Positions 2 through 27,670 of a DNA stretch of 32,000 bases are shown here, piece by piece. The first letter of the stretch is position 1. Each line of letters begins with the position of its first letter. Source of the stretch: Candidatus Saccharimonadota bacterium. Its GTDB lineage: Bacteria; Patescibacteriota; Gracilibacteria; BD1-5; UBA2023. The translations under genes and the position numbers were made by a program. Location of the stretch: assembly GCA_042852035.1 (NCBI GenBank), contig BAAFHK010000002.1, positions 150,001 to 182,000 on the forward strand, written 5' to 3'. A model generated the notes under the pieces. That model was not told where the DNA came from and searched no databases. It was given only the letters and a program-made list of their open reading frames with translations.

Positions 2-1108
2 CTATCATTTTCAATGAAAGGTATAGCTGTTATTAAAAAGTTTTTTTTCTTACTCCCAAAGAAGAGGGAGGATGCGGTAATGCTTTTTACATCATGAAGC
101 GAATCTCTTCCTAAGGCAATTCTTCTTACTCATAAGAACATTCTTTGTGATATTGAGTGAGCTCTTGCTCTTGTTCCTTTTAAGAAAAATGAGACAATTA
201 TTTGATTCCTCCCACCATTTCATAGTTTTGGTTTTACAATAAATACGATTTTTCCATTCGTAGCACCAGTGCAAGCTGCCTATACACCAGACCCTGGTGA
301 TGCTCGAACTATAGGAAAGATTCTTTTACACACTCAAGCGAGTATTGTATCAGCAACTCCAACATTTCTTCGTATGATTCTTTCTGGAAATGAGGCTCAC
401 TCACTCACTTCACTCAAATTTGCTTTTGTGTGAGCAGAGAAATGTAACGATGAAGTATTTTCTCTTTTTCGAAAGAAGTGCCCTGAAGCTATTATTCTTG
501 AATGATATGGTATTACTGAGTGTAGTCCTATAGTGACGGTGAATCCTCTTTCAAAACAACTGAAATGATCAGCAGGAAAATTTCTTCCTACAATAATACC
601 AATGATTCGATCACTTGATAATAAAGAGTCTCTCAAAGCATGAGAACAATGAATGATTTACATTACGGGCCCAAGTATATTCTGATGATATATTGACCCA
701 AATTTGGAAAGTCCTTTTGATGAATTTGATTGAAAAAAATGGTATAAAACTTGAGATCTTGGTTATATAGATGAAGAATGATTTCTCTTTATTACTGGCA
801 GACTCAAGCGGTTTGTGAAAATTGCCTGAGAAATGATATCACTTCCTTTTATCGAGGGTATTCTTCTTGAAAAATATGGAAATCCTGAGGTTACAACTCT
901 TGCAATTGAGGCAAAAGAAGAAAATGGGAATGTCACAATTGTTGCATTCACAAATTTTGAAGAAAGTGTTGATGTAATCAATGATTACATACATACCCAT
1001 GGTGCATCAAATCTTGTAAAAATTGCAAGAGTAGAGAAGCTAAATGCTATTCCTATTCTTTGAACGGGAAAGACCGATTATAAGCAGTTAAAATCACTGA
1101 TTCAGTAG
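2..1108 (+). CDS. AMP-dependent synthetase/ligase (acyl-CoA/acyl-ACP synthetase-like), 5' end outside window
   Basis: Frame open from the window edge to TAG 1106-1108 with TGA=Gly. Adenylation motifs MLFTSGSESLPKAILLTH (Gly from TGA 95-97), [54 protein letters not shown]. Confidence 0.85.
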
Positions 1109-1110
1109 GC

Positions 1111-1137
1111 TTGTAATTCTCCACGATTACCTATAAT
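1111..1137 (+). promoter_or_regulatory. Candidate sigma70-like promoter (TTGTAA, 15 nt spacer, TATAAT) upstream of the diiron oxygenase gene
   Basis: TTGTAA 1111-1116 and TATAAT 1132-1137 lie in the 78-nt gap between stop 1108 and ATG 1187. The spacer is slightly short. Confidence 0.35.
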
Positions 1138-1140
1138 TGA

Positions 1141-1167
1141 GGGCAATACGTAATTTACGTATTGCCC
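1141..1167. repeat. Perfect inverted repeat GGGCAATACGTAA-T-TTACGTATTGCCC (terminator hairpin or operator)
   Basis: 13-nt arms at 1141-1153 and 1155-1167 are exact reverse complements, followed by TTT. It lies 33 nt after the upstream stop and 3 nt after the TATAAT box. Confidence 0.7.
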
Positions 1168-1186
1168 TTTAGAATTTCATTTTTTG

Positions 1187-2107
1187 ATGCAAAACAAACC
1201 TCATAATCCTATAATCAGGAATCTTACACGTATCTCACGAGAATCATCAAAAAGTTTCGAAGATTTTTTTGATTGGAATCAGTATAAGAAAGATGATGGA
1301 CAATACTACATGCCCCCAGAATTACTCTCGATATATGGATCAGAGTTATATGAAAAACTTACTGAGAAACAACTCCGAGAGCTCACCCGAATCGAAGCCA
1401 TACAAACACTTTATCTCTATGCCTATGCAGAAAGTGTGATGTGTTACTATATGGCACGCCATCTGGTAAAATCAGACTTTTGAAGTGAAGAACATGCTTT
1501 TATCCTCAGGGAACAAATCGAAGAGTATCGGCATCAGGATATGTTTCTCCGTGCATTAGAAATCCTTGGGAAAGATTATAAACCAATGTCAAAATTCACG
1601 AAATGGTGGACAGGATTTGAGGCAATAGTACTTCCGCCAAAGATTTTCTTTCTGCTTCAAATTGCAATTGAACTTGTAACACGTGAGATTTGAAGACTTA
1701 CATTTCCAGATGAGAGAATCCACCCGCTTGTCCGAGATCTCTGTATGATTCATGAAAGGGAAGAGGCTCGACACGTTACCTTTTCTAATGCATATATAGA
1801 AAATGCCTATAAAAGAGATGGATTTTTTATGAGAACAATTGCTGGTATATGCATAGCTCTCGATATAGCGTTTCTCCACCATTTCTACGTTTACCCCTGA
1901 ATGTATAAAAAGGCCTGAATCTCCGAAGATCTCAAATATTACAAAACAGCGAAGAAATTCATTTTAAGAAGTGAAGTGAAAAATATGATGACAGGAAGTG
2001 CTCGAGAATTTCTCTCCAAGCATTGATGGATAACATGGGCAAATGAATGGTTATTTCGTCTTCTTACAGGTATAACAAAAAATAAAATATATGGACCGAA
2101 TTCGTAA
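1187..2107 (+). CDS. Ferritin-like diiron oxygenase (AurF / acyl-ACP-desaturase-like)
   Basis: 306 aa. Two E...ExxH half-sites: YAESV...EEYRHQD and IELVT...EREEARH. Ends TAA 2105-2107, with 4 in-frame TGA codons. Confidence 0.7.
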
Positions 2108-3128
2108 AATCCTCCAACCAAAAATAGCAATCTACTCAATGGGGACGTATACACCAAGCCAAAAGATAACGAGTAGCGAAGTAGAAGAAAGAATCAGGAA
2201 AGAAAGTTCGTATACTGGTTTTCGAGAGAATTCCGTTTTTGAGATCTCTGGGACGTACACTCGATATTTTTCTGATAGCACAGAGGAGGCATCTACTCTA
2301 GCTTCTGAAGCTGCAAAAAAAGCACTCTCTTCTGCTTCTATGAAGATTGATGAAATAGATGCAATTATTTTTGCGAGCGCATCCCAAGATGTAATAGAAC
2401 CAGCTACTTGAAATAGGGTACAAACCCTTCTTTCAAGCAAAGCACCAGTGTTTGATATAAAAAACGCATGTAATAGTTTTCTTAATGGGCTCCAGGTAGC
2501 AAAAAGTCTCATATCCTCATGACAGTATTCATGTATTCTTGTATGTTCATGAGAGACTCCATCGAGAGCTATCCGTTGGGAAACCAAATCAGCAGCCGAC
2601 TTTAAGGATGCATTTGCTTGATACAATCTTTCAGATGCTGGTGTTGCTATGATCCTCTGAAAGCAGAAAGCAAAACTCCCAGAAATTGTTTTTACAGAAT
2701 TTCTTTCCAAGGGTGAGTATTTTGATGCAAGCATGATTCCTTGATGATGATCGTGTTTTCCTAGGGATACAGAGAAGCTTTTTTTTCGTTCTGATTCTCG
2801 TCGTCTTTCTGAGGCTTTCAATGTTGGAATATTGGATTTTACACAAAATACTCTAAAGAAACATCGATGGAAACTTTCAAAAGTGAATTATTTTCTTCCA
2901 CATATTGTTTCTCGATATTCAAAAGAAGTATTTTCCAATACATTTTCCCTCCCGCATCATAGAATTCTCAATTATAATTCTACTCACGGAAACATGGCCT
3001 CTTGTTCGGTCCCATTTGCATTTATTACTGAATATGAGAAGAAAAGATTTATTTCTCATGAACGAATTCTTATGGTATGACTTTGAGCCGGTGCATCATA
3101 TGCGCTTGTGTGAATAGAATTTCCTTAA
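2091..3128 (+). CDS. 3-oxoacyl-ACP synthase III-like thiolase (FabH/OleA family)
   Basis: 345 aa. Cys-His-Asn triad context: FDIKNACNSF (Cys codon 2469-2471), FLPHIVS, STHGNMASCSVPF. C-terminal MVGLGAGASYALV. ATG 2091 overlaps the upstream gene by 17 nt. Confidence 0.85.
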
Positions 3129-3164
3129 CTCTTGCAACTCATAGCATTATGGATACTATATTTT

Positions 3165-3170
3165 TATAAT
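3165..3170 (+). promoter_or_regulatory. TATAAT box 8 nt upstream of ATG 3179 (leaderless-type spacing)
   Basis: Exact TATAAT at 3165-3170. No purine-rich RBS lies between it and the ATG. Confidence 0.4.
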
Positions 3171-3178
3171 TGCTTTCT

Positions 3179-4216
3179 ATGAATACTCTGTATTTTTCTC
3201 CATATCTCACGCAATTGAGCGTATATTTTTTGATTATAACCTCTATAATCTTTTTATTTGTGGTATCCTACTGATTGAAGTATTATCGATATTTTTTCTG
3301 GAGATTTTCAGCTCTCCTCATATGAGTTCTTTTTTTTGAGTTTCTCACGAGTTCTTTGTGGGTAACGGCTCACCTTGGGACATATGGGTATCTCAATGGT
3401 GATGTGAGTCTTGTTCTTTCGTTTTTTTGGGCTTCTCTTATTTTCTCTTCTCGTATACTTTTTGATAAGATTTTTTTGAAGAAGACTCTTCTTTTGGAAC
3501 TAGGCTTTGTTTTGTGAATAACAACAATTTTCTGACTCCTGACTATTACTCTACTCAAAGAGATTGAAGTTTTTTCATACTCAAAAGAAATGCAGGAGAT
3601 TGTTCAGAGTGGTATAACTTTATTTGGTAGACCTCTTGAGGCATTGATCTATTTTCCTACATTTGTGTTTGTAACATATAGTTTTTATAAATATTGGGAA
3701 TTAGCGATGTACAATAAGCTCTATTTTCTTAATTATTCTATTCGCCCCACAAGAGATATATTTATAGTCCTTGGATCAGTTATAGCAATTTGATACCTTA
3801 TGCACCCGCTTCTTGTTTCGAATAATTTTTATACGTATCCTTTACTTTGTTTTTGAGCATTGATATTCCTCATTATCGTAAATTTCACAATTGCCTCTGC
3901 GACACATTTTTCTCTTTTTATTCGATATGTGTTTGGCACACTTTTGTTTTCAGTTTTCTTTGGTTCATTGTTGAGCTATCTTCTTTGAAAAGGTTGGATA
4001 CAAATTTCAGAGAGCCTTAAAATTAATTATACAGAAGCAACATTTTTTATTCCGGGATTTCACTTTACAGATTCTGAGGCAGTAGGAATTATGTTCTTTT
4101 CCTATTTGCTTATTGCCATAGTAAAATACTATAAGGTTGTTTTTTCTCATAAATCTATTTCAATCGATGACTCAAAAATGACATTTCGATGATGGAAGAG
4201 CCTCTTTAGTAGATAA
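3179..4216 (+). CDS. Polytopic integral membrane protein, unknown function
   Basis: 345 aa, continuous with TGA=Gly. Many hydrophobic segments rich in F/L/I/Y. An in-frame TAA at 3167 limits the start. Ends TAA 4214-4216. Confidence 0.75.
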
Positions 4217-4250
4217 TCGTATATAATATTTATTTTTTAACTTAAGCTCT

Positions 4251-4916
4251 ATGGGACTATCAGTAATAGTAAGTATTTTCTTTATTGTTGGCATTGTCTT
4301 TTCTGGAAAATATCCAATTCTATGAGCTATAGTGTGGTTCCTTATTATGAGTCTATGAGTTGCTTGAGGTACAGGAATTTTTGCTCTTATATTCGTTGAT
4401 TCTCAGCCTCAGATAGCAAATATGATTTGCATCGGGGGATTCATTGTTTGGCTGATTCTTACAGTTGGTATTATTCGAGCGTATCTTGCATTGCGAAAGC
4501 CACAGAATGTGAATATATGAACGAATGCCTCTTCCCAATCAAATACTACTCAAGGTACTTCTTTACCTCAGTCTCCAAAGATTTCTGATACTCCAAAAGA
4601 TTTAATCCAACAAAAGAAGTTAAGTCTCCGAGAGAAAATTGACGCTCTAGATATTGGCACAAAAGATACCGTCATCTTTTTTTATAAAGATGGTTCTGGT
4701 ATGAGGCTTCAGCTTAAAAATCTCGCGAAAATTGTTCAAGAAATAATCAATGAATTTCATAGAAGTGAATTTGCACCTTGAGAGCTTGAAAATCATTTCC
4801 ACTACATTAAAGAGAATTATGCAACAAGCCTTAATTCATCTGATTACTCTATTGTCTTGAAAGTCGTAGAAAGATTTGTAAAAGAATGAGGCAGGCTTGA
4901 TGTAACAACTTCATAG
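4251..4916 (+). CDS. Membrane protein (about 3 N-terminal TM helices plus soluble C-terminal domain), unknown function
   Basis: 221 aa, MGLSVIVSIFFIVGIVFSG..., then an S/T/Q-rich linker and a charged helical C-terminus. TATAAT at 4222-4227 upstream. Ends TAG 4914-4916. Confidence 0.7.
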
Positions 4917-4917
4917 C

Positions 4918-6387
4918 ATGATCTATCAATCATCATTACTTGATGAGATCGCAATACAGCTAGAAAAAAGCGATCCATTTATTATTCGATCTAACGGAGT
5001 AAGTATATCTAGAAATCAGTACAAACGAGAACTTGATTTTTTTACATATCAAATATCTTCATTTCTTTCTTGCGGTGATGTTTTTAGTGTTTGGATAGAT
5101 AATGAAATCCTTTTTTCTCAAATTATTCTTGCAGGTCTTCGATCTTGATCGGTTGCATGTTTAATTGATCCGGAATGATGAAATGCAATAGTTAAAAATC
5201 AAATCCTTGAGGCAAAAGTACAATATATATTTATAGAATGAAAAATATTTGATATATTTTTTCTAACGAGAAATCCACTTCTCCAACTACCAGTGCAATA
5301 TGTCATCGTATGATTTAGTGTCTTTGGTTTTCGGAGAAAGAAAATTCTTTGTGGGATCAGTGAAGTTCACCTCCCAGAAACAAAAAAACTTAATGAAAAC
5401 GAGCCTTCAATTATTGTTTTTACATGATGAACAACAGATGTTCCAAAATGAGTGGTACATACGCATAAATCACTTGTGGCTACCGCACAGAATTTACTGC
5501 CACTCTTCTCTCTCGTGAAACGTATGTATGTGGATATGCCACACTTTCTTCTCTTTGGATTACTTTTGGGTATTCCTATGGTAACAGGAAAGAATAGATT
5601 TTCGTCAAGAAAGGTATTTTCAATTATAAAAAAATATAATGTTGATGGATATTTCTCGCCACCGTATAGATATAATTTCCTTATTAAAAAAGGATATGTC
5701 CCAGCATCATTGAAGCATATATATATTTGATCGGCACCAGTCTATTATGGATTTCTCACAAGATTAATCTCTATTCTAAAATGAGATCAAAATATACATT
5801 GTATTTATTGAATGACGGAAATTCTCCCTATTGCAATGATTGATTGACGTGAAAAATTAGATTTCTGAAATGTTGCATGAGATATACTCTGAAGAGTATA
5901 TGGTAATATTGAAGTTAAATGCAGAAATCAAGAATTTCTTGTAAAATGACCACATGTGTCAGCATGATATTTATGAGATACAAAAAAAGAGTATATATCA
6001 ACGGGTGATTGTTGATATATTTCCGATGGTCTTCTCGTTCTGACTTGAAGAAAGAAAGATATGATAATTCGAAAGGATTTTAATATCTATCCTGCTCTTT
6101 ATGAGTCAATTATATCAAAGATTCCCTGAGTTATTGAGGTTGCCCTAGTTGGTGTATATGAGAGTAAAAATGCTGATGAGAAGATATTTCTCTTCTTGGA
6201 AGTATCATGAATAGTTTATAAAAAAGAAACAATTTTATCACTGCTTAAAAAATGAAAGTATTCCATTGATGAATTTGCTCTTCCTGATGAAATACTCTTT
6301 ATGAATCTTCCAAGGAAGTGAAGGCAGAAAAAAATTGATAAAGAAACACTTCGCCAATTTGCTAAAAAAAATTATTTATGAGGATAG
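4918..6387 (+). CDS. AMP-dependent synthetase/ligase (fatty-acyl-AMP/CoA ligase or OleC-like beta-lactone synthetase candidate)
   Basis: 489 aa. IIVFTGGTTDVPKGVVHTH (three motif Gly encoded by TGA at 5425-5430 and 5449-5451), IYGMTE, STGDCGYISDGLLVLTGRKKDMII, LPRKGRQKKIDK. Starts 1 nt after the upstream stop. Confidence 0.85.
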
Positions 6388-7262
6388 CTATACTGGGTGC
6401 TCTATGATTTGTTGGTCGAAATATAGTTCGATATTTCAAAAATAATAATGAAATATTCGCGTTTGTTCGTAGAATTGGGGATCATGAAGAATGAGTAGAA
6501 TATATTTTTTGGGATAATTCATATGAGCCCAATTTTTATGAAAAAATTGATGTTTGTATTGATTGTGTTTCTGATGTTGATTTTACGAAAAATGATACTT
6601 ATCTGATGGGAAATAATGTCTGAATATTGAAACAGACAAAGAAATTTCTTGAAGATACAAGCTGTGAGCATTATATTTATATATCAAGTTCTTCAGTATA
6701 TATGGGGAAAGATGGCATTCTCCATGAAGCTGATTGAATCGATATCAATAACTTGAGAAATTCCTATGCAAGATCAAAATATTTTGCTGAAGAGTATATT
6801 CGGAATAATTTTAAAAAATGAAAAATCACTATTCTTCGTCCTAGAGCTATATATGGAGATGATGATACGACGCTCCTTCCAAAGTTACTTTCATTACATT
6901 TTTTTTCCTATCTCATTTTTCCTTGAAATCAGAATATTTTTACTTCCGTTACACATATAGAAAACCTTCTTCATGCTCTTGATACGGTTATAAATAAGCA
7001 AACTGATTTGTATGGACACTATAATGTCTCAGATGAGAAGCAAGTTTTATATAAAGATTTGTATACAAAATTGGTTTTAAAATATGGATTTTCTAGAACT
7101 ATATCCCTTCCAGGTTTTATCATTTTTGTATTAAAGTATATATTACCCAATAAATGGGGATATATAGAAGATACATTCTCTAGAAATAAGCAGCTTGATA
7201 TTTCAAAAATTAAAACATTATGATACAATCCAAAGAAGGATTTAGACTCATTCCTTTCTTAA
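6378..7262 (+). CDS. NAD(P)-dependent epimerase/dehydratase-family SDR (OleD-like candidate)
   Basis: 294 aa. Rossmann motif MRIAILGALGFVGRNIV, catalytic YARSK, ILRPRAIYGDDD. Overlaps the upstream ligase by 10 nt. Confidence 0.8.
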
Positions 7263-7278
7263 AATTGATTCATTTTCT

Positions 7279-9501
7279 ATGTCACACAAAAAGGAAATAG
7301 TAGACGAAGTTACAGGACTTTTTCCTGTGAGTGTTAAAAAAATATTTACTCCTGAATCTATTGAGGATATACAGAAGATTCTTAAGGAGGAACCCTGAAA
7401 GATCTCAATTGGTTGAGGTCGATATAGCATGTGAGGACAAACAGCAGTATTGTGAGGTATTCAGATTGATATGAGAAAGATGAAAAAAATTCTTCATTTT
7501 GATGAAAAAAAGAAGTGTATTACCGTGGAAACGGGGATTACATGGAGAGATATACAAGATTATATTGACCCATACAACCTTTCGGTCATGACGATGCAGA
7601 CCTATTCGAACTTTACGGTGTGAGGTTCTCTTTCTGTAAACGTTCATGGGAGATATATCTGATATGGTCCACTTATTCTTTCTGTAGAAAGTATTAAAAT
7701 TATTCTTGCTGACGGTACAATAAAACTCGCGTCAAAGGTAGAGAATAGTGATATATTTTTTGCAGCAATCGGAGGGTATTGAGGTATATGAATTATTATT
7801 GAGGCAACTCTTCATCTCAAGGAGAATAGTATGCTCGAAAGAAAATATGAAGATATGGATTTACATCTCTATGGCGCCTGGTTTAGGGATAATGTGAGGA
7901 ATAATCGAGATGTTATTTTTCATAATGCTGATATATATCCGCCTCATTATAAAAAAGTTCGCGCCACAAGCTGGGAAAAGACAAAAAATCTTGCAACCAC
8001 TAAAGACGCCCTCATTTCAAGGAATTGATCGTATCCTATTCATCGGATAGCATACTTTCTTATGACCTATTTTAGATTTTGAAGACTTGATTTTGGAAAA
8101 TGGATTCGAGAATCTATTATAGATCCTCTTGTTTATGCTCATAAGGAAGTTCATTCTCGTAATTATGAGGCAAGTTATGATGTTGCAGAGCTCGAACCAA
8201 AAAGTCGAGAAAAAACCACATACGTTCTCGAGGAGTATTTTTGCCCTGTTGATAAAATAAATATTTTTGTTCCTAAAATGGCAGAAATATTTCAAAGACA
8301 TAATGCTAATATTGTAAATATTTCGATACGTCATGCCCTTCCTGACAATGGATCGATTCTAGCATGGGCAAAAGAAGAAGTTTTTGCTTTCGTGGTATAT
8401 TATAACCAAGAAACTACCTTACCTCGAAAGAGAGAGGTTGCAGTATGGACCCGGGAACTTATAGATGTCGTGTTATGAGTCGGTTGAAGATATTATCTTC
8501 CGTATCAACTTCATGGAAGTCTCTCGCAAATAAAGAAGGCTTACCCAAGGTTTCAAGAATATTGCGACATAAAGCAAAAGTATGATCCATCGTGAAAGTT
8601 CAGTAACTCTTTGCTTGAGAAGTATTACTTTGAGACTACAAAGAATAATAAAATACTTTCCTCTCGATTTCACACTATATATCATAATGAAGAGTGGAGA
8701 GATAAATTCTTTATTTTTCTTCAAAATATTTTTCATGTAGCACCTACGCATCTCTTCCATAGTCATATCTGGGATTTGATAGAAAAGCATAAAACAGATA
8801 AAGAAATCTATCTTGCTATACAGTCAACAATTTCTCAGATTAAGCCATTACTGGCAGATATTCGTTTTGGGATACCATCGCTCTATAAACAGAAGAATGA
8901 AATAGTTCAAGAGGTAAGTGAGCTTATTCCGAAAAAATGAAAATTTAATGGCTATCTTGAGGTGGGTTGAGCGGGAAGATATATACATCCAATGAAAAAG
9001 ACATACAGGATACATGGTCCAGTATACCTTGTTTCAGATGAGCCAATTGATTACTCTCCAGTTCGAGTTCTCGAAAGATGAAAAATTTCGAAATACAATA
9101 CAAAAAGGCTCACTTATTCTTCCGAAGACCTGGAGCATATACCTACAAATTCTCTTGATTTAGTGAGTATATTTATCGGACTTCATCATGCTCCAGTATG
9201 ACTTTTGGATAGTTTTGTATCTGCACTTTCATCGAAACTTCGTAAATGAGGAATTCTTATTTTAAGAGATCATAATGTTCATGATCCATTTATTTCCCAT
9301 TTTGTTTCGATAGCTCATGATATATATAACGCTTGAACGGGTATTTCATGGGATCAAAATGAAAGTGAACAAAGAAACTTTCGAAGTACCCAAGAATGGA
9401 AAGATTTACTCTGAAATCATGCTTTGAGATTCTGCGAGAAAGAAGTCCTACAACAACATGATCCAACACTCAATACGCTCATGTGTTTTATAAAAGAATA
9501 A
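7279..9501 (+). CDS. Fusion protein: N-terminal FAD-binding (PCMH-type) oxidase domain plus C-terminal class I SAM-methyltransferase-like domain
   Basis: 740 aa in a single frame. FAD domain ISIGGGRYSMGGQ, VGGSLSVNVHG, AAIGGYGGIGIIIEATL, GGRYYLPYQLH. MTase motifs YLEVGGAGRY (I), VYLVSDEP, LDLVSIFIGLHH (II), LRKGGILILRD (III). Confidence 0.8.
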
Positions 9502-9512
9502 AAAAATTTCTT

Positions 9513-10574
9513 ATGGGAAAAATTTTCAAAGTTATACTTCATCTTGTTTTATTCATCATTATTGTTGTTATAATTGTACTTTCATTTTCTTGGTATAATT
9601 ATAATCGAGGAGTTAAAAGTGTAGATATTGGTCTTCAGGAACGTATTTTTTCTTGAGTCTCAATAGATAATATCTTTTCGACCGATACCTGATCTATACG
9701 CAGAACATGAAATACATTTATGAGCATACCGGAATGGTATATAGTAACTCTCTCGGCAGATTATACTAAATGGCTTGAAGAAGGGAAAAATCCGAGTGAC
9801 TTTCCATACTTTCATTATCTGAGTGATATGTGGTATATGTATGGGAGAATTACCGCTATAATGGATGGGAAAATACCGAGAGATTATGAATACCATACCA
9901 TGGTGCAGGTTATATGACTTAGTACCACTTTAGAGTTTTGATCTAAAGCGATTTATGAATTAACCCTCTGAAGAATAACATCATTTTTTTGATATAACAC
10001 ACAAGAGGATCGTTATTATCGGGATTTTTCTCGGAAATATGTGAATTTTATACTTCTTCGTCCATGGTATGAATTTCCATTTCGTGAGCTTAGAGAAGGC
10101 TTCCGGTTGAGAGAGTATAGTATAAGAGGTATAGAGCGATTTGCTATAATCTCTATTGAGTTATATTTAAAAGAGAAATATGCAAAACTCATTGAAGATG
10201 CGGCCCATTCGAATTTTGCCACTCCTGATATATGGACTAGCCTGGAGTGAAATTTTTCAAAAAAAACTATAAGTACATTAGGTCTGAAAGCAGAGGAGAT
10301 GACTTGAGGGATAAGAATCCCTCGTTATTATCCATTCACTGAAATTTTTCCTGATATTATTGAGAATAGAGAAAATCGAGTATATTCTATAGCATGAAAT
10401 AAATATATCGTGAGTGAGTTTTTATGAGCTGAACAAGACACGAATGCATTTCTTTCATTTCCCCTCCCTACAGAGCCGAAAATCTTTCGATCCTATTATT
10501 TTACAAGTATTGATTGATTAAAAACAAACCTCTCTAATCCAAAAAGTACCCTTATACATATTTATGATTTTTAA
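9513..10574 (+). CDS. N-terminally membrane-anchored hypothetical protein
   Basis: 353 aa. N-terminal TM KVILHLVLFIIIVVIIVLSF. W/Y/F-rich soluble part. I recognise no family. Confidence 0.7.
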
Positions 10575-10576
10575 TT

Positions 10577-11875
10577 ATGAAAAACTATTCTCTGATTCTA
10601 AAAAATATCGATAGAACTTTTGAAAAGGCTTTGAATTCTCTGAAGAAAGATCCTATTTTTTCATCGAATCAAACTCTCTATACGGATGATGATAAAAATC
10701 GTATAGCGTTATATTGGAAAGATATTTTAAAGCCATTTTGAGAACTTCAAAGAATTATACGTTCACTCATGTGGCGGTCATTTTTTACTTTCGGAAGTAA
10801 AAATATATTTGTCGTCAAATATTCGGCAATAATCACCTATTACAATATGGTCTATGAACTTCAGCAGAGCTTTGGTCCTCATGAGGAATTTCTCAGGCAA
10901 TATCTTGATGATACATTTTCAGAGAATTATTCCACCCTTGCTCGATTTATGTACCACATAAGATTTTACAGTATTCTTTCATACCCAAGAGAGTATTTTC
11001 TCTCCCTCAGGGATGAGGTAATTCCTTCGCTTGCGCCACTTTTTGATAGACCAGAAAAGCATGCTTGAGATGTTGAGAAACGATGGAAACATGACCTCAT
11101 AAACATATGGTACTATGTAAGATATAAAATGAGCTTAGTTCTTACTTGGATATCGAAGCATGGAGGGAGACTTATGATGCACATTCATCTGAGAAAGCGA
11201 GAACATTGACTTATATCCCTTGAAAATCTCAAATCAGTAGAGAAGCTTCTTAGTCCAGGTGATATACTTCTTACTCGTGGAAATTGGGCGGCTACAAACC
11301 TCAATATTCCATGATTTTGGAAGCATATGGCAATGTATATAGGAACAGGGAAGTACTTAAAGGATTCTTATACTTATGAAAAGCTCTCACTTCTTGATGA
11401 CTCAACTCATTATATTATAGAGGCAATAGGAGTATGAGTACAGATTATCCCCCTTGAGTCTCTTTGCGGGCATAATGATTATCTCTGAGTATTACGACCG
11501 AAATTCAAAAATGAGAAAGTATCACGAGCCATAGAAAAAACCCTTAAACTTGAAGGGAAGTCCTACGATTACTCATTTAACTATTATAGTGATGTCAATT
11601 ATGTTTGTTCTACTCTTGTAACGAAGGCCTATCTTCCAGAATCATATACTGATGAAGGGATACATATATCACTTACTCGAATAGGAACAGGAATCACTTA
11701 TCCTCCGAATGATATCGTAAAAAAATATAGTGTTGAGTATATGACGAAGAAAGAGGAGCTCACATTTGTTGCATTTATTGATTGTATTGATAAGACGGGT
11801 CAAAGTTTTCTTGCTACCGAAGAGGCTTTCCGAAGTTCGGGCTTTAGACCAAAACTTTCTTTTTTTCTTCCCTAA
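10577..11875 (+). CDS. YiiX/YaeF-like permuted papain-fold (NlpC/P60 superfamily) protein with about 200-aa N-terminal extension
   Basis: 432 aa. SPGDILLTRG...FWKHMAMYIG, IIEAIGVGV, KSYDYSFNYYSDVNYVCSTLVTKAY match the family motif order. Confidence 0.7.
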
Positions 11876-12445
11876 ATGCATTTTGAGTATCATAAAAAAT
11901 CATGAGAAAAAATTGATGAAGCAAAAAAAAGTGGTTTTTTCTCTCTGGGTGATCTTTCTGATGAGAGTGTTCTTGCAAGATACTATATTTCGAGATATTT
12001 TCATGATACATATTCTTTCATTCCATTCCTAGATAAAGATAGAAATGGTTTTCCACTGCCGATAATCTCCTGAAGCCTCGGAACATTTTATTGGTCAATT
12101 TCTCACTCAGATGAATATGTTGCATGGATGATAGATAAAAATCCTTGCGGTATTGATATTGCTCAATATTTTATTCGAGATGAATCACTTCTTTCCAAAC
12201 ATGATGAAGAAGAATATGAAATACTCTGAGAAAAATCATGGAAAAATTTTTATAGACTTTGGACTTCAAAAGAGGCACTTATAAAGAAACTTTCTCTCAC
12301 TCTTGATGACATGGAGAAAATTAAGCTTTTTTCTTCAGATAAAGAACAACTCGTATTTGTATTTTTCTCCGAATCCCATACAATTACCACAATTCAAGAG
12401 GATAAAATTTTTATTTCCTTTACTCCATCATATGAATCGATTTAA
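11876..12445 (+). CDS. 4'-phosphopantetheinyl transferase (Sfp/EntD type)
   Basis: 189 aa. SISHSDEYVAWMI, PCGIDIA, FYRLWTSKEALIKK. ATG abuts the upstream stop (11873-11875). Confidence 0.8.
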
Positions 12446-13637
12446 GACATTTTCCTTATTTCTTATTCTGGTGGCGGTATGGGCACTTTTCTTTGCTACG
12501 GTGAAGTTTTTTCTTTGGGGTGATCTTTCTGAAGAATTCCAGCCTGATCTTCAGCAAATTGCTTGATATCTTTCGCTTTGATGAGCAATCGCGTTTCTTA
12601 TAGGCTGAGCCTTTGCTCAAACTTTCCTAAAAAAGTATTATCTTTTTATCATTGCTCTTCTTTCCTCAGTTTTTATTCTTTATGCTTATCTTGTAGGATT
12701 TTCGAGAGAGATACTTTTTGCTGCAACAGTTACAATTCTCTGATTTCTCTACGGATTATGGAATGTAATGAAAAGCGTTATTATCTCGATAGAGATTAAA
12801 AAGACAAACCTTCCTGAAACTGCTGTAACTGCAATTGTTGGGATGATGTTTGTGATTTGTATTATATTTTGATCTCTTCTTGGGACTATTGCTTATGAGA
12901 AAATAGGTCATCATGGATATCTTTTATTGCTAGGATATCTTCTTCTCGCAGGAATTACTTCATTCTTTCTCGACTATGACGGAGTATCTTTCAGATCCCT
13001 TCTTACAAAGTGATGGAAAAATTATCTTATGGGTCGCAAGCAAAGCCTTGCAGTATCGATGAAGGCATATATTCCAGATCTTATTTATATCACAAAACAC
13101 TATCTTCCAATTATCGTAACTTCATCACTTTTCTGGTCTATTTCAACTATTATTTCCCAGGCTTCAGTAGAATATAGTAGCGCAACTTTTGGTATAAAAA
13201 GCTCACAAGCGACGATGATTCTTCTCTATTCAGCCGTGGGAGCTATAATAGGAAGTTTTCTCTCTATAAAAATGTGAAATAATCGATGGATGTATTTTAT
13301 GATTTTTAGTATCCTTTTTTCTCTCTCTACAGCTATGATTCCTGTATTTGGTTCTTCATTTGGGAATCTTTCAATCATTGCAACAGTGCTTGGAATGTGT
13401 TTCTGAACGGCTGTAAACCTTTCAGATTCCTTTCTTTTAAAATCGTTTGGTGATGAAAATAAAAAGGAGTATGGCGCATCCACAATGGGGCTTATATTTT
13501 CTATTATACTTTTTCTATCAATGTTCTTATCAAGTATGTTACTTCAGAGGCTCTGATATCATACGGTTATGTATATTTTCTCTGGAATAATTCTTACTAT
13601 TTGAGTTTCACTTGGTATTTATAAATTAAAAAAATAA
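12432..13637 (+). CDS. Multi-pass membrane transporter (MFS-like)
   Basis: 401 aa, about 11-12 hydrophobic helices in two halves separated by a basic loop (LLTKGWKNYLMGRKQS). Overlaps the PPTase gene by 14 nt. The MFS assignment is by topology only. Confidence 0.6.
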
Positions 13638-16600: not shown

Positions 16601-17792
16601 TGCATCAGACGGATATTTCGATATGAAAAGCTTCTTTGCAAAGCCACTCATTGAGGACTATCAATGAGAACAGATATATTATATTGAGGCAATTCCTGTT
16701 CCTTTCGTTGGGAAAATTGGCTTTGCCTATACCTTTATAGATAACTTCTTTTTTATCGGACTGAATCGAACCAGTATGCGACATGTTATCGATGTTGCTA
16801 ATTCGGGTGATGATGCTCGAAAGACCTTACTTGATTGAAGTACAGTTCTAGAAAACTCGTTTTTTGTCGGACTTCTCGATGGAATTACCGCATCGAGCGA
16901 TCTCAAATGACTCTATGAAAAAAACCGTACTTCCATACCTCGCTACGCATCACTTCTTGATAAAAATGATTCTTGACTACAAGGACTCAATCAGATACTT
17001 TCCTCATATCATGTGTCTTACACAAGATCAAAGAGACTTGGTATTGATTCAAAGCCATTTGATTTCACACTTTGAGGACTTAGTATCAAAGAAATTGATG
17101 GAGATTTATGGGTTCGTATCGATGAATCGCTCCAAAATGATCTTTCAGGGACTACCCTTCAGCTTTGGGAAAATATATCATCTGATGAACGTTTTCCGAG
17201 AGCATTAGTCGGAGATATGGGTATTAAAATCCAAGAATTTCTTATGAATCCTATGAAATCTGAAATTCTAGCCTTTGAACTTATCGTAAAGCTTGATCAT
17301 GCTTTTGAATGAAATGAATCACTTCTTCGAAACTCAACCTTCTCATTGTCAGTAAATGAGAATGAGATTTGATTCCTTTCTCGAGTCTTTCGAGAAAGAG
17401 ACACTCATGGAAATACTTGAGAGACTAAAGGTATCTTTTCATGAATAAATTCTGCATATATTATTTGATGATGAGTTTTCATAGTACTTGTAATAATCCT
17501 TTGAGGAGGATTCCTGTTGTATAGCAGAAAGAAAAATATTGGACTAAACAAGAATAATCCGTCTAACTCTCAAGCTTCTCCAGGTTCATCCTTAGCAAAC
17601 TATAGCCTTCCTCCTGGGATTATCATTGGCGATGAACAATCAGTGCTTATTAAGCCAACTGCAACCCCAACTATATCCGAAATAGTGCAGTCAGTAGATC
17701 AGGCATCTTCATCATGAGAAATTGCAATAAACACATCTCAGTCACCAACAACAGGTGAATCATGAAATAATAGTCTCCCTTCCCAAAGTTAG
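13662..17792 (+). CDS. Giant secreted protein, 1376 aa, signal peptide plus C-terminal TM anchor and S/P/T-rich tail
   Basis: One uninterrupted frame with TGA=Gly, checked codon by codon. N-terminus MKHSSLLVVLVASFLTLFAGISLVSA. TM IIGGGVFIVLVIILGGGFLLY (17460-17522) followed by SRKKN and a low-complexity tail. Ends TAG 17790-17792. Confidence 0.8.
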
Positions 17793-17793
17793 T

Positions 17794-23670: not shown

Positions 23671-23679
23671 ATATACTCT

Positions 23680-23937
23680 ATGCAATATCCAAGATTACAT
23701 TCTCGCTGGCGCCACTATAAATCTCAATGATGAGACGATCATACGTACGAGGTTCTTGGGGTATTTATCCACTCAGAATCGCATGAACCGATGGTGGTCT
23801 ATCGCCCACTCTATATGGTTCCAGAAGATTCTTGGGTCTACGGATTTCCAGGGGCAGTTCGACCACTTTCGATTTGGTATGATGAAGTCGAATATAAAGG
23901 GGAACATGTCCAGAGATTTGCAGAAATTATTTCATAA
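23680..23937 (+). CDS. DUF1653-like small protein
   Basis: 85 aa. RWRHYKSQGGDDHTYEVLGVFIHSESHEPMVVYRPLY...VRPLSIWYDEVEYKGEHVQRFAEI matches the YRHYKG...Y.V...HSE...VVY..LY...RP...F...V..RF pattern. It lies in a different frame from track ORF 23585..23959. Confidence 0.7.
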
Positions 23938-23959
23938 ATTATTTACATATGTGACTTGA

Positions 23960-26330: not shown

Positions 26331-26340
26331 TCATATTTTT

Positions 26341-27669: not shown

Positions 27670-27670
27670 T

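What the first reader, a model, noticed from the sequence alone, without database searches (positions are those of the whole stretch)
2..13637. 12-gene acyl-lipid / specialised-metabolite cluster in a lineage expected to have minimal lipid biosynthesis
The genes are same-strand and have overlapping or abutting junctions (2091/2107, 4916/4918, 6378/6387, 11875/11876, 12432/12445). They encode two acyl-AMP ligases, an AurF/desaturase-like diiron oxygenase, a FabH/OleA-like thiolase with an intact Cys-His-Asn triad, an SDR and an FAD oxidase-methyltransferase fusion. They also encode a YiiX-like permuted papain, an Sfp-type PPTase, three membrane proteins of unknown function and an MFS-like exporter. 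Code-25 CPR bacteria are generally described as lacking de novo fatty-acid/lipid synthesis. An activation, condensation and tailoring cluster with its own exporter therefore suggests scavenged host fatty acids being converted into a modified lipid or secreted product. I do not recognise this gene combination as a described pathway.
Basis: inference. Interest (0 to 1): 0.8.

Follow-up and report, generated by a model that had tools for sequence, protein, structure and literature searches.

The report
Lipid-salvage locus with OleA-type cassette
In a tiny, host-dependent bacterium that reads UGA as glycine, genes for re-using scavenged fatty acids sit next to a rare cassette related to the enzymes other bacteria use to join two fatty acids head-to-head, which gives a testable route for how such lipid-auxotrophic cells handle and modify lipids.

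Summary

They are not one conserved 12-gene pathway. Comparison with related recoded contigs shows three parts.

(1) A conserved frame. It consists of an Aas-type acyltransferase–ACP–acyl-ACP-synthetase fusion (g1, cut by the window edge), a YiiX-type papain-like enzyme, an Sfp-type PPTase and an MFS transporter.

(2) A rare cassette. It consists of an AurF-like diiron oxygenase, a thiolase with the OleA hallmark Glu-Pro motif, an unnamed membrane protein, an AMP-ligase and an SDR. The thiolase, ligase and SDR are the OleA/OleC/OleD triad of olefin and β-lactone pathways. No OleB was found.

(3) An unrelated module. It is a DprE1-like oxidase/methyltransferase-like fusion plus a partner protein, and it is widespread in Proteobacteria.

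The cassette lies beside the frame in five different arrangements, which argues for functional coupling.

Most likely, scavenged fatty acids are activated, condensed head-to-head, reduced and lactonised or otherwise processed. The product is unknown.

Verdict: a new variant of a known kind. It is moderately to highly interesting, mainly because ACP-dependent lipid enzymes were reported as not found in CPR genomes.

The parts
2..1108 (+). g1: C-terminal adenylation (acyl-ACP synthetase) domain of an Aas-type protein; the gene is cut by the left end of the window. Full-length orthologues have the order acyltransferase (HX4D) - ACP - AMP-binding (872-983 aa).
   Evidence: Pfam AMP-binding 131 bits. 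NCBIfam acyl-[ACP]--phospholipid O-acyltransferase 302 bits to model positions 769-1140 of 1147, and fatty acid--[ACP] ligase 266 bits. Orthologues are 70-81% identical. The ACP domain is shown in orthologues by a profile search against the PDB (top 60 hits all ACPs, E 4.9e-9) and by Pfam PP-binding in 5 of 5. HX4D is conserved.
1187..2107 (+). g2: AurF/CmlI-type ferritin-like diiron oxygenase (cassette).
   Evidence: Pfam AurF 127.5 bits. Family-invariant E82, E113xxH116, E162 and H189xxxE193xxH196. Model pLDDT 88; best folds are AurF and CmlI, TM 0.52-0.63.
2091..3128 (+). g3: OleA-type thiolase, predicted head-to-head Claisen condensing enzyme (cassette).
   Evidence: ACP_syn_III N and C domains. 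The top PDB matches, which I recognise from memory as Xanthomonas OleA entries, score 99 bits against 89 or less for FabH-labelled entries. Glu-Pro (VIEPAT), Cys (NACNSF), His (PHIVS) and Asn (HGNMAS) are invariant in the clade. It is linked to the ligase and SDR in recoded, actinomycete and other loci.
3179..4216 (+). g4: polytopic membrane protein of a very small unnamed family; a conserved cassette member.
   Evidence: No Pfam or NCBIfam match. Homologues at 44-47% lie in the cassettes of L010/L015, L011, L095, L096 and L097. Only 54 representatives among 1.84 billion proteins. Three of 22 members give a marginal Lycopene_cyc hit. Multiple hydrophobic segments.
4251..4916 (+). g5: orphan protein with about three N-terminal TM segments and a soluble C-terminal part; not conserved in any related locus.
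   Evidence: No family match. No BLASTP hit in any related locus. Its database cluster holds only this genome's copy plus one Logan contig.
4918..6387 (+). g6: ANL-superfamily adenylating enzyme in the OleC (beta-lactone synthetase) position (cassette).
   Evidence: AMP-binding 93 bits. NCBIfam PRK06187 125, PRK09274 122, olefin beta-lactone synthetase 87 bits. This is nearly the same profile as the Actinomadura ligase of an OleA-GT-P450-ligase-SDR cluster. It is linked to the thiolase in 55 of 63 actinomycete loci and 36 of 41 metagenome loci.
6378..7262 (+). g7: extended SDR in the OleD (2-alkyl-3-oxoalkanoate reductase) position (cassette).
   Evidence: Epimerase, 3Beta_HSD and NAD_binding_4. 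OleD models score 30-32 bits and thioester reductase 49 bits. It is 28% identical (80 bits) to the Actinomadura SDR, whose top NCBIfam hit is OleD at 131 bits. GxxGxxG and YxxxK are visible in the sequence.
7279..9501 (+). g8: DprE1/ALO-like FAD oxidase fused to a class-I methyltransferase-like domain (separate module).
   Evidence: FAD_binding_4 84 bits and ALO. Model pLDDT 85; Foldseek to DprE1 gives target TM up to 0.83, E 1e-22. Full-length homologues at 46-49% occur in Proteobacteria with Methyltransf_11/23/25.
9513..10574 (+). g9: N-terminally anchored protein of unknown family; the conserved partner of g8.
   Evidence: It follows the g8 homologue in L004, L006 and L008 (49-53%) and in Andreprevotia and Cognatilysobacter (31%). 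No Pfam match and no PDB relative.
10577..11875 (+). g10: YiiX/YaeF-type permuted papain-like (NlpC/P60 clan) enzyme with an extra N-terminal domain of about 200 aa (frame).
   Evidence: Peptidase_C92 64 bits. It aligns to E. coli YiiX 2IF6, with its Cys (VCSTLV) on YCSEVV. It is 59-81% identical in L004, L006, L008, L011, L095 and L097.
11876..12445 (+). g11: Sfp-type 4'-phosphopantetheinyl transferase (frame); its likely substrate is the ACP domain of the g1-type protein.
   Evidence: ACPS 26.3 bits against a cut-off of 25. Weak NCBIfam hits to AusB, AcpT and HetI. A g11 homologue is detected in every intact related locus whose contig reaches that position; none was detected in the decayed L096.
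12432..13637 (+). g12: MFS transporter (frame); substrate and direction unknown.
   Evidence: MFS_1 36 bits. No NCBIfam hit, so it is not recognisably LplT. It is 86% identical in L008/L009 and 27-29% in L004, L006, L095 and L097.
13662..19606 (+). g13-g15: 1376-aa surface protein (N-terminal hydrophobic signal-like segment, C-terminal TM), ABC ATPase and FtsX-type permease. They are packed tightly behind the MFS and are syntenic in some relatives; whether they belong to the system is uncertain.
   Evidence: Gaps of 24, 1 and -38 nt. ABC_tran 82 bits and FtsX 23 bits. Homologues follow the MFS in L009 (63-73%) and, for g13, in L095.

Best explanation
The region is a lipid-salvage locus with a variable slot, not a single 12-gene pathway.

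Frame (g1, g10, g11, g12). An Aas-type enzyme carries its own ACP domain. The clustered PPTase converts that ACP to the holo form. The adenylation domain loads scavenged free fatty acids onto it. The HX4D acyltransferase domain passes the acyl chain to an acceptor, most plausibly a lysophospholipid as in E. coli Aas. The YiiX-type Cys enzyme and the MFS transporter are constant companions whose roles are inferred only; candidate roles are acyl-(thio)ester hydrolysis or transfer, and lipid transport.

Cassette (g2, g3, g4, g6, g7). This is an OleA/OleD/OleC-type route. g3 would condense two activated long acyl chains head-to-head to a 2-alkyl-3-keto acid. g7 would reduce it to the 2-alkyl-3-hydroxy acid. 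g6 would adenylate the carboxylate. Because no OleB-type decarboxylase is present, the default product is a long-chain beta-lactone or a lipid derived from it. The AurF-like diiron enzyme g2 and the membrane protein g4 would tailor or handle it.

g8-g9 is an unrelated module that occupies the same slot. g5 is an orphan.

Shown: the homologies, the catalytic motifs, the ACP domain in orthologues, and the synteny patterns. Inferred: substrates, the order of steps, the coupling between frame and cassette, and the product.
For: Frame.
- g1 best matches Aas and acyl-ACP synthetase models.
- Orthologues carry acyltransferase, ACP and AMP-binding domains. HX4D is conserved in all five.
- The frame is syntenic in L004, L006, L008/9, L095 and L097.
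- The Aas/LplT system acylates lysophospholipids (PMC11416262).
- CPR are enriched in lysolipids and are thought to take lipids from other cells, yet ACP-dependent enzymes were reported as not identified in the CPR genomes of that study (bioRxiv 10.1101/465690).

Cassette.
- g3 has the Glu-Pro general-base motif. PMC7064751 describes this mechanism as unique to OleA within the thiolase superfamily.
- g3, g6 and g7 homologues are linked in 55-61 of 63 actinomycete loci and in 35-36 of 41 other loci.
- The Actinomadura locus has the same layout as the Actinoplanes atraurantiacus OleA-GT-OleC-P450-OleD cluster, whose OleA was active in the published assay.
- g6 scores like that cluster type's ligase, and that cluster type's SDR is OleD-like.
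- OleACD or NltABCD without OleB gives beta-lactones (PMC7064751; bioRxiv 10.1101/856955).

Coupling.
- The cassette lies beside the Aas and PPTase genes in five different gene orders: window, L011-13, L010/L015, L095 and L097.
- TGA supplies 32-61% of Gly codons in cassette genes, so the cassette is long resident in this lineage.
- The window contains no FAS II gene, no stand-alone ACP gene and no OleB-type gene.
Against: - All equivalog-level HMM scores are far below their curated cut-offs: OleA-containing model 151 against 285, OleC 87 against 900, OleD 30-32 against 580.
- g7 scores higher to the thioester-reductase model (49 bits) than to OleD.
- Known OleA enzymes use acyl-CoA. Whether this organism has CoA thioesters, or whether g3 accepts the ACP-bound acyl chain, is unknown.
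- All documented AurF-family enzymes are N-oxygenases, and the cluster offers no nitrogen-containing substrate. The role of g2 is therefore unexplained.
- In L010/L015 the Aas-type protein has lost its adenylation domain, so the g6-type ligase may load the ACP instead of making a lactone.
- Gene adjacency in a compact, almost single-strand genome is weak evidence of co-function on its own.
- The frame occurs without the cassette in three genomes.
- g12 is not recognisably LplT.
- g1 is incomplete in the window, so its acyltransferase and ACP domains are inferred from orthologues.
Confidence: 0.55

Rival explanations
1. Branched membrane-lipid route. The cassette makes 2-alkyl-3-hydroxy (mycolate-like) acids. 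The g6 ligase adenylates these and loads them onto the ACP domain of the Aas-type protein, and the acyltransferase domain esterifies them to lysolipids. The end product is an unusual very-long-chain membrane lipid, not a free beta-lactone.
For: The cassette stays next to the AT-ACP protein and the PPTase in five arrangements. In L010/L015 the AT-ACP protein lacks its own adenylation domain, and the g6-type ligase is the only adenylating enzyme in that cluster. L095 adds PAP2 and FA_hydroxylase membrane enzymes to the cassette, which fits membrane-lipid tailoring. The products of OleABCD in other bacteria are membrane lipids (PMC7064751).
Against: No OleC-type enzyme is known to transfer its substrate to a carrier protein. 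The truncated AT-ACP protein of L010/L015 may simply be a relic. There is no lipid data for this lineage. g6 scores like the ligases of OleB-less clusters that are predicted to make lactones.
Confidence: 0.2
2. All twelve genes form one dedicated pathway, from activation through condensation, tailoring (including g8 oxidation and methylation) and export, that makes a single secreted specialised metabolite.
For: The genes are on one strand with overlapping or abutting junctions. All the recognisable enzymes can be assigned acyl or lipid chemistry. An MFS transporter closes the set.
Against: g8-g9 occurs with the frame but without the cassette in L004, L006 and L008. The cassette occurs without g8-g9 in L011, L015, L095 and L097. 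g8-g9 stands alone with DUF805 in Proteobacteria. g5 is not conserved. The tight packing continues into g13-g15 and is typical of the whole window.
Confidence: 0.1
3. Unrelated neighbours. The frame, the cassette and g8-g9 are functionally independent and share a recombination-prone slot in a small genome. The cassette acts on acyl-CoA as a self-contained secondary-metabolite (beta-lactone) cluster.
For: The slot between the Aas gene and the C92 gene varies in content. L096 shows transposases and gene decay at this locus. The same AurF-OleA-ligase-SDR unit exists without any frame genes in a standard-code 6.9-Mb genome, L169. Actinomycete OleACD clusters have no Aas or PPTase neighbours.
Against: The cassette remains adjacent to the Aas and PPTase genes through five distinct rearrangements, including one where it sits after the MFS (L097) and one where only the AT-ACP and PPTase genes remain beside it (L015). 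Chance retention in every intact case seen is unlikely.
Confidence: 0.12
4. Housekeeping reading. g3 is an ordinary FabH and g1/g6 are FadD-type ligases that feed a FAS II or phospholipid pathway encoded elsewhere.
For: Generic FabH models score nearly as well as the OleA-containing model (150 against 151 bits). Database annotations call these proteins 'ketoacyl-ACP synthase III' and 'acyl-CoA synthetase'.
Against: Glu-Pro replaces the FabH sequence at the OleA general-base position throughout the clade. The thiolase is linked to the ligase and SDR across phyla rather than to fab genes. The clade is rare, with 1 of 185,579 species-representative genomes and 1 metagenome contig holding a close relative, which does not fit a housekeeping gene. 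No fab gene lies in the window or in the related loci examined.
Confidence: 0.03

Closest known systems
OleACD / NltABCD / Lst-type beta-lactone pathways and OleABCD olefin pathway (Xanthomonas campestris, Nocardia brasiliensis, Streptomyces toxytricini; Actinoplanes atraurantiacus OleA-GT-OleC-P450-OleD cluster)
   Same: A thiolase with Cys-His-Asn plus the Glu-Pro general base, an ANL-family ligase and an extended SDR are linked in one cluster. There is no OleB, as in the lactone-forming clusters. An oxygenase gene sits inside the cluster (a P450 in Actinoplanes, a diiron enzyme here).
   Different: Sequence identity is only 30-40% to the nearest non-CPR members, and all equivalog HMM cut-offs are missed. 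The partner oxygenase is AurF-type, which is seen in only 2 of 158 non-recoded loci examined (one adjacent at 32% identity, one weak hit). A conserved unnamed membrane protein (g4) belongs to the unit. The unit is physically tied to an Aas-type AT-ACP-synthetase and a PPTase, which suggests ACP-bound rather than CoA-bound substrates. The host is a code-25 CPR bacterium of a group described as lacking fatty-acid synthesis.
Aas (2-acyl-GPE acyltransferase / acyl-ACP synthetase) with LplT of Gram-negative bacteria; stand-alone fatty acid-[ACP] ligase (NCBIfam PRK06334)
   Same: An N-terminal HX4D acyltransferase and a C-terminal acyl-ACP synthetase domain that best matches the Aas models. An MFS transporter is encoded nearby. 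The proposed role is re-acylation of lysophospholipids with exogenous fatty acids.
   Different: An ACP domain is fused between the two catalytic domains, and a dedicated PPTase is clustered with the gene. The MFS is not detectably LplT. A YiiX-type enzyme is a constant partner.
AurF / CmlI arylamine N-oxygenases (Pfam PF11583)
   Same: The Pfam match is well above its cut-off. The seven-ligand diiron site (4 carboxylates and 3 His, including HxxxExxH) is intact. AurF and CmlI are the best structural matches.
   Different: phmmer finds no solved structure at E 0.01 or better, and Foldseek identity to AurF/CmlI is 11-14%. The cluster contains no arylamine or other amine-forming enzyme. The context is fatty-acyl chemistry, for which no AurF-family activity is documented.
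DprE1 / L-galactonolactone dehydrogenase (VAO-type FAD oxidases, ALO subfamily)
   Same: The N-terminal ~470 residues of g8 have this fold (target TM up to 0.83) and match FAD_binding_4 plus ALO.
   Different: It is fused to a methyltransferase-like domain, is always followed by a ~350-aa extracytoplasmic partner of unknown family, and is often accompanied by DUF805. Substrate and function are unknown in every organism.

Membership tests
OleA (head-to-head condensing thiolase) | KAS III/thiolase fold with a Cys-His-Asn catalytic triad | tested here: met
   Pfam ACP_syn_III N and C domains. Cys, His and Asn align to X. campestris OleA and are invariant in 20 sequences.
OleA (head-to-head condensing thiolase) | Glu117-Pro general base contributed by the partner subunit, described as unique to OleA within the thiolase superfamily (PMC7064751) | tested here: met
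   g3 VIEPAT aligns to OleA YLEPST. E-P is invariant in the g3 clade, in the actinomycete tier and in L169.
OleA (head-to-head condensing thiolase) | Clustered with OleC- and OleD-type genes | tested here: met
   The ligase and SDR are adjacent in all recoded loci. Homologues are linked in 55-61 of 63 actinomycete loci and 35-36 of 41 other loci.
OleA (head-to-head condensing thiolase) | Score above a curated family cut-off | tested here: not met
   The best NCBIfam model, PRK09258, scores 151 bits against a cut-off of 285. A generic FabH subfamily model scores 150 bits.
OleA (head-to-head condensing thiolase) | Claisen condensation of two long-chain acyl thioesters; p-nitrophenyl ester hydrolysis | not testable with these tools
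   This needs enzyme assays.
OleC (beta-lactone synthetase) | ANL-superfamily adenylating enzyme encoded next to OleA and OleD | tested here: met
   AMP-binding and the synteny.
OleC (beta-lactone synthetase) | Recognised as a beta-lactone synthetase by a family model or classifier | tested here: inconclusive
   The NCBIfam olefin beta-lactone synthetase model scores 87 bits against a cut-off of 900, ranks fourth, and gives a partial alignment. The ligase of the actinomycete OleA-GT-P450-ligase-SDR cluster behaves the same way (78 bits). The AdenylPred classifier (bioRxiv 10.1101/856955) could not be run.
OleD (2-alkyl-3-oxoalkanoate reductase) | Extended SDR of the 3beta-HSD type with a GxxGxxG motif and YxxxK | tested here: met
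   Pfam Epimerase, 3Beta_HSD and NAD_binding_4. GALGFVG and YARSK are visible in the sequence.
OleD (2-alkyl-3-oxoalkanoate reductase) | Direct match to the OleD family models | tested here: not met
   30-32 bits against a cut-off of 580, while the thioester-reductase model scores higher at 49 bits. The link is only transitive, through the Actinomadura SDR (80 bits to g7, and 131 bits to OleD).
OleB (beta-lactone decarboxylase) | Dehalogenase-like alpha/beta-hydrolase with an Asp nucleophile, encoded in the cluster | tested here: not met
   There is no alpha/beta-hydrolase among g1-g15. g20 belongs to the Abhydrolase_2 carboxylesterase family. The cassette-linked hydrolase of L095 has a Ser elbow, GHSIG, and esterase-type hits. 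That OleB uses an Asp nucleophile is from my own knowledge.
AurF/CmlI diiron N-oxygenases | PF11583 membership, the 4-carboxylate/3-His diiron site, and the ferritin-like fold | tested here: met
   127.5 bits against a cut-off of 29.6. The ligands are invariant. Foldseek's top hits are AurF and CmlI.
AurF/CmlI diiron N-oxygenases | N-oxygenation of an amine substrate | not testable with these tools
   No amine-forming gene is in the cluster, and all documented activities of the family are N-oxygenations.
Aas (acyltransferase / acyl-ACP synthetase) | HX4D acyltransferase domain followed by an Aas-type adenylation domain | tested here: met
   This was met in orthologues that are 70-81% identical to g1: PF01553 plus NHPALVD, and the Aas models are the top NCBIfam hits. 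The window itself holds only the adenylation part.
Aas (acyltransferase / acyl-ACP synthetase) | Curated equivalog cut-off; LplT partner | tested here: not met
   412 bits against a cut-off of 1221 for the 1147-aa fusion model, and 260 against 886 for the E. coli-type model. g12 matches no NCBIfam model.
Carrier protein plus Sfp-type PPTase pair | ACP fold with a DSL serine; PPTase of the ACPS superfamily | tested here: met
   An ACP profile search against the PDB gives E 4.9e-9 with the DSLD serine aligned. PP-binding is found in 5 of 5 orthologues. g11 scores 26.3 bits to ACPS against a cut-off of 25, plus weak hits to AusB, AcpT and HetI. The PPTase score is marginal.
YiiX/YaeF permuted papain-like enzymes (Peptidase_C92) | PF05708 match with the conserved Cys | tested here: met
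   64 bits against a cut-off of 27. The alignment to 2IF6 places g10 VCSTLV on YCSEVV. That this Cys is the catalytic residue, and the biochemical function of the family, rest on my own knowledge or are unknown.

The most novel reading that the evidence does not exclude
A lipid-auxotrophic CPR bacterium does not merely recycle host lipids. It rebuilds them. Scavenged fatty acids are loaded onto an ACP that is fused inside an Aas-type enzyme, joined head-to-head by an OleA-type thiolase acting on carrier-bound chains, oxidised by an AurF-family diiron enzyme with a non-N-oxygenase activity, and processed by a new membrane enzyme (g4). The result would be a lipid class (a beta-lactone, or a mycolate-like or hydrocarbon lipid) not yet seen in Patescibacteria, either for the unusual membrane of ultra-small cells or as a lipase/hydrolase-inhibiting weapon against the host.
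Probability: 0.2. Interest if true: 0.85.

Novelty: new variant of a known kind. Interest (0 to 1): 0.62.

Why it matters
How CPR/Patescibacteria obtain and maintain membranes without fatty-acid synthesis is an open question. Lipidomics pointed to uptake of host lipids and enrichment of lysolipids, but the same study reported that no enzymes producing or requiring ACP were identified in the CPR genomes it examined.

The frame found here is a self-contained candidate for the missing re-acylation step. It is an Aas-type acyltransferase with a built-in ACP, plus its own PPTase, conserved across several Gracilibacteria lineages, and it can be tested directly in vitro.

The attached cassette would extend OleA-type head-to-head condensation to a code-25 CPR lineage. 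It would also link that chemistry to an AurF-family diiron enzyme and a new membrane protein. That implies either a new tailoring chemistry for this enzyme family or a reactive beta-lactone made by an episymbiont or predator.

Separately, the g8-g9 module is a widespread, wholly uncharacterised DprE1-like system in Proteobacteria.

Tried and rejected
I worked around this with database ids that are identical or 98% identical to the window proteins (P0001, P0121, P0241, P0269).
- The source contig itself could not be fetched. The missing N-terminus of g1 was therefore inferred from orthologues.
- LplT identity of the MFS: no NCBIfam hit; rejected as a claim.
- OleB: searched for in the window and in related loci. 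Only serine-type esterase-like hydrolases were found. The L004 hydrolase belongs with the g8 module (34% identical to the Andreprevotia neighbour), not with the cassette.
- Recent horizontal import of the cassette from a standard-code donor: rejected, because cassette genes use TGA-Gly as heavily as their neighbours and show no GC anomaly.
- Ether-lipid (AGPS-like) reading of g8: rejected. AGPS scores only 22 bits, while DprE1 and ALO-type enzymes dominate by both sequence and fold.
- g9 and the g8 C-terminal domain against the PDB by sequence: nothing found.
- g4: the exhaustive HMMER search found only a tiny family, and only a marginal Lycopene_cyc hit in 3 of 22 members. That is too weak to use.
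- Promoter and terminator scans: no signal above shuffled sequence. tRNA scan: none found.
- Literature searches for OleA in CPR, for AurF-like enzymes acting on lipids, and for lipid genes in Gracilibacteria found no prior description.

Full report

Yes. Under table 11 the window gives only fragments: 2,504 aa in ORFs of 100 aa or more. With UGA read as sense, a contiguous + strand gene array appears.

In-frame TGA codons sit on canonical glycines, such as the AMP-ligase motifs TSgSESLPK and ggTTDVPKgV and the Walker A motif GPSGSgKTT. Twelve of 20 TGA sites in g8 and 7 of 11 in g3 align with a Gly majority in standard-code homologues, against a background of 5.8%. None aligns with Trp. The code is therefore 25, not 4.

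g8 is 100% identical to a protein of a 'Candidatus Altimarinota bacterium' MAG on a 289,822-bp contig. g4 and g5 are HHAS10_08360 and HHAS10_08370 of the same record, both annotated 'hypothetical protein'.

Four caveats apply.
- g1 is only the last 368 residues of a longer gene.
- The methyltransferase part of g8 is supported by homologues, a motif and the model rather than by Pfam on this protein.
- Tight same-strand packing continues to position 19606, so it does not define a 12-gene unit.
- Promoter and terminator scans carry no signal.

**2. Anatomy from comparison with relatives**

I used homologues of g8, g3 and g2, look-ups of their contigs, a scan of 185,579 species-representative genomes and a metagenome scan. 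I re-annotated the recoded loci under table 25 and compared them with the window by BLASTP and tblastn. Three components separate out.

(a) A frame. It consists of an Aas-type gene (g1), a Peptidase_C92 gene (g10), a PPTase (g11) and an MFS transporter (g12). In some relatives g13 and the ABC/FtsX pair follow. The frame is syntenic in L004, L006, L008/9, L095 and L097, with 59-81% identity for g1 and g10.

(b) A cassette. It consists of g4, an AurF-like gene (g2), a thiolase (g3), a ligase (g6) and an SDR (g7). It is present in the window, L011-13, L010/L015, L095 and L097, and in decayed form with transposases in L096.

(c) The pair g8-g9. In L004, L006 and L008 it lies in the slot between the Aas gene and the C92 gene, and those loci have no cassette. 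It is absent from the four other cassette-bearing lineages. In Proteobacteria it is a stand-alone module with DUF805 at 46-49% identity. In some genomes a serine α/β-hydrolase is attached (L004 against Andreprevotia: 34% over 270 aa).

g5 has no homologue in any related locus.

The cassette occurs in five different gene orders, yet it is next to the Aas-type gene in every intact locus and next to the PPTase in all of those whose contig reaches that position (the decayed L096 shows neither).
- Window: Aas | AurF-OleA-g4-g5-ligase-SDR | g8-g9 | C92-PPT-MFS.
- L011-13: Aas | g4-AurF-OleA-ligase-SDR | C92-PPT.
- L010/L015: truncated AT-ACP | g4-AurF-OleA-ligase-SDR | PPT.
- L095: Aas | OleA-g4-PAP2-FA_hydroxylase-AurF-ligase-hydrolase-SDR | pyruvate kinase | C92-PPT-MFS-g13.
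- L097: Aas-C92-PPT-MFS | g4-AurF-OleA-ligase-SDR.

**3. The frame**

g1 best matches Aas and acyl-ACP-synthetase models: 302 bits to positions 769-1140 of a 1147-residue model, and 266 bits to the stand-alone fatty acid-[ACP] ligase model.

Full-length orthologues (872-983 aa) have an N-terminal PlsC-type acyltransferase with a conserved HX4D motif, NHPALVD. Between that domain and the adenylation domain lies a segment carrying an invariant DSLD.

A profile of that segment from five orthologues retrieves only acyl carrier proteins from the PDB. The top 60 hits are all ACPs, the best E-value is 4.9e-9, and the serine aligns to the phosphopantetheine site. All five orthologues match Pfam PP-binding. 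The clustered Sfp-type PPTase g11 therefore has an obvious substrate.

In E. coli, Aas together with LplT re-acylates lysophospholipids (PMC11416262). Here an MFS transporter is present, but it is not recognisably LplT.

g10 is a YiiX-type permuted papain-like protein whose conserved Cys is in place. Its role is unknown. A function as an acyl-(thio)esterase or acyltransferase is inference from the NlpC/P60-LRAT clan and rests on my own knowledge.

The context matters. CPR are described as lacking fatty-acid and lipid synthesis (PMC10221324; PMC8080830). Probst et al. found lysolipids enriched in CPR and proposed uptake from other cells, and they state that enzymes producing or requiring ACP were not identified in the CPR genomes of that study (bioRxiv 10.1101/465690).

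**4. The cassette**

The best solved-structure matches of g3 are the 3ROW/3S20/4KTI/5VXD series, which I recognise from memory as Xanthomonas OleA. They score 99 bits, above the entries labelled FabH (89 bits or less).

The mBio study of OleA diversity reports that nearly all OleA proteins carry Glu117 followed by Pro. It also reports that this glutamate, supplied by the partner subunit, is essential, and that the mechanism is unique to OleA within the thiolase superfamily (PMC7064751). g3 has VIEPAT aligned to OleA YLEPST. The Glu-Pro pair and the Cys/His/Asn triad are invariant in g3, in eight close relatives and in ten more distant relatives, mostly actinomycete. They are also present in L169.

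The nearest non-recoded relatives (36-42% identity) are Thermomonosporaceae, Streptosporangiaceae and other actinomycetes. In those loci a g6-like ligase accompanies the thiolase in 55 of 63 loci with full flanks, and a g7-like SDR in 61 of 63. In a broader metagenome set the figures are 36 of 41 and 35 of 41.

The Actinomadura locus L014 has the order thiolase-GT2-P450-ligase-SDR. That is the layout described for Actinoplanes atraurantiacus, whose OleA was active and whose OleB-less cluster is predicted to make a β-lactone.

As a calibration, the L014 ligase scores against NCBIfam almost exactly as g6 does: PRK06187 144 against 125 bits, PRK09274 125 against 122, and olefin β-lactone synthetase 78 against 87. 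The L014 SDR has OleD as its top hit at 131 bits. g7 itself reaches only 30-32 bits on the OleD models, so its assignment is transitive.

The chemistry OleA/NltAB, then OleD/NltD, then OleC/NltC has been reconstituted in vitro for nocardiolactone (bioRxiv 10.1101/856955).

No OleB-type hydrolase is present in the window. The hydrolases inside or beside the L095 and L011 cassettes are serine esterase-like.

**5. The unusual partners**

g2 is a true AurF-family protein. It scores 127 bits on Pfam. The family-invariant residues are E82, E113xxH116, E162 and H189xxxE193xxH196. A confident model (pLDDT 88) has AurF and CmlI as its best structural matches, followed by fatty-acid-binding R2lox proteins and acyl-ACP desaturases.

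All documented activities of AurF-like enzymes are N-oxygenations, and nothing in the cluster provides an amine.

An AurF-like gene accompanies the thiolase in every recoded locus. Among the 158 non-recoded loci examined it appears in only 2: L169, where it is adjacent at 32% identity, and one actinomycete locus with a weak hit (24%, 80 bits). L169 is from a standard-code genome of GC 47% and 6.9 Mb, and it has the same four genes in the same order at about 31-32% identity.

g4 is a polytopic membrane protein of a tiny family, with 54 representatives among 1.84 billion proteins. Only 3 of 22 members give a marginal lycopene-cyclase-domain hit.

By analogy with the P450 of the Actinoplanes cluster, g2 may oxidise an alkyl chain. 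This is inference with low confidence.

Cassette genes use TGA for 32-61% of their Gly codons, as heavily as their neighbours. The cassette is therefore long established in this lineage. It is also rare: only one species-representative genome and one metagenome contig carry a close g3 relative. Cassette genes diverge faster than frame genes, at 39-45% against 62-72% between the window and L095.

**6. g8-g9**

The g8 model (pLDDT 85) superimposes on M. tuberculosis DprE1 (target TM up to 0.83) and on L-galactonolactone dehydrogenase. Residues of about 555-740 form a β/α domain that carries a methyltransferase motif I.

g9 has an N-terminal anchor, which is replaced by a signal-peptide-like N-terminus in the proteobacterial homologues. 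It has no Pfam match and no PDB relative.

The function is unknown in every organism. I see no evidence that this module belongs to the acyl pathway.

**7. Mechanism, rivals and confidence**

The best-supported model (0.55) has two coupled parts: lipid salvage by the Aas-ACP/PPTase frame, and an OleA/OleD/OleC-type head-to-head condensation cassette. The default product of the cassette, in the absence of OleB, is a long-chain β-lactone or a lipid derived from it.

The main alternative (0.2) is that the ligase loads the branched hydroxy acid onto the fused ACP for transfer into membrane lipids. It is suggested by L010/L015, where the AT-ACP protein has lost its own adenylation domain.

The other rivals are a single 12-gene pathway (0.1), functionally unrelated neighbours (0.12) and housekeeping FabH/FadD genes (0.03).

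Weaknesses: all equivalog cut-offs are missed; the substrate carrier (CoA or ACP) is unknown; the role of g2 is unexplained; and g1 is incomplete in the window.

**8. Novelty**

The triad is a known kind of system and the Aas function is known. Several things appear to be new.
- The ACP fusion with a dedicated PPTase in a CPR lineage.
- The AurF-type and g4 partners of an OleACD unit.
- The persistent physical coupling of the two systems.

I found no prior description of any of these.

I rate this a new variant of a known kind, with interest 0.62.

Noticed in passing
window 7279-10574; L001 9636-13269; L003 9637-13326: g8-g9 (a DprE1-like FAD oxidase fused to a methyltransferase-like domain, plus a ~350-aa extracytoplasmic partner) is a module conserved at 46-49% identity in many Proteobacteria. 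There it comes with DUF805, either separate or fused, and sometimes with a serine alpha/beta-hydrolase. No function is known anywhere.
   Followed up: partly
L169 9120-13521: A standard-code genome (GC 47%, 6.9-Mb contig) carries the same AurF-like, OleA-like, ligase and SDR genes in the same order and tightly packed. Its database annotations are generic ('hypothetical protein', 'KAS III', 'acyl-CoA synthetase'). The organism was not identified.
   Followed up: partly
window 13662-19606: A 1376-aa surface protein (N-terminal hydrophobic signal-like segment, C-terminal TM, no Pfam match), an ABC ATPase and an FtsX-type permease are packed directly behind the MFS. They are syntenic in L009 and, for g13, in L095. 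This may be a MacB/Lol-like system that belongs to the same locus.
   Followed up: partly
window 24224-24850: g20 is a phospholipase/carboxylesterase-family hydrolase (Abhydrolase_2, 111 bits). A 56%-identical homologue lies near the cluster in L004. It could supply lysolipids or free fatty acids.
   Followed up: no
L095 8520-9967 and 12425-13255: In a more divergent 1.08-Mb genome the cassette additionally holds a PAP2_3 protein, a His-box FA_hydroxylase protein and a serine hydrolase (GHSIG). A pyruvate kinase sits where the window has g8-g9.
   Followed up: partly
L096 (GCA_030949885.1), whole locus: A contig of GC 20% carries a decayed version of the cassette (fragmented thiolase and SDR) interspersed with several transposase genes.
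   Followed up: no
window 4251-4916: g5 (about three TM segments plus a soluble domain) is an orphan. Its database cluster holds only this genome's copy plus one Logan contig, and it has no homologue in any related locus.
   Followed up: partly
window 1187-2107 and 7279-9501: Two enzyme types that normally use O2, a diiron oxygenase and a VAO-type flavin oxidase, are encoded in a lineage usually described as anaerobic and fermentative.
   Followed up: no
proteins P0122, P0124 and alignment A1: Several public database entries for this lineage show Trp at conserved Gly positions. They were evidently translated with code 4 instead of code 25.
   Followed up: partly
window 22390-23670 and 23585-24205: g18 is a 426-aa Cys/His-rich protein with no Pfam match. 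The overlapping ORF g19 (23585-24205) was not scanned against any family library and may not be a real gene.
   Followed up: no
window 26308-28336: A histidine kinase (+ strand) sits next to an OmpR-type response regulator (27671-28336), which is the only clear minus-strand gene in the window.
   Followed up: no
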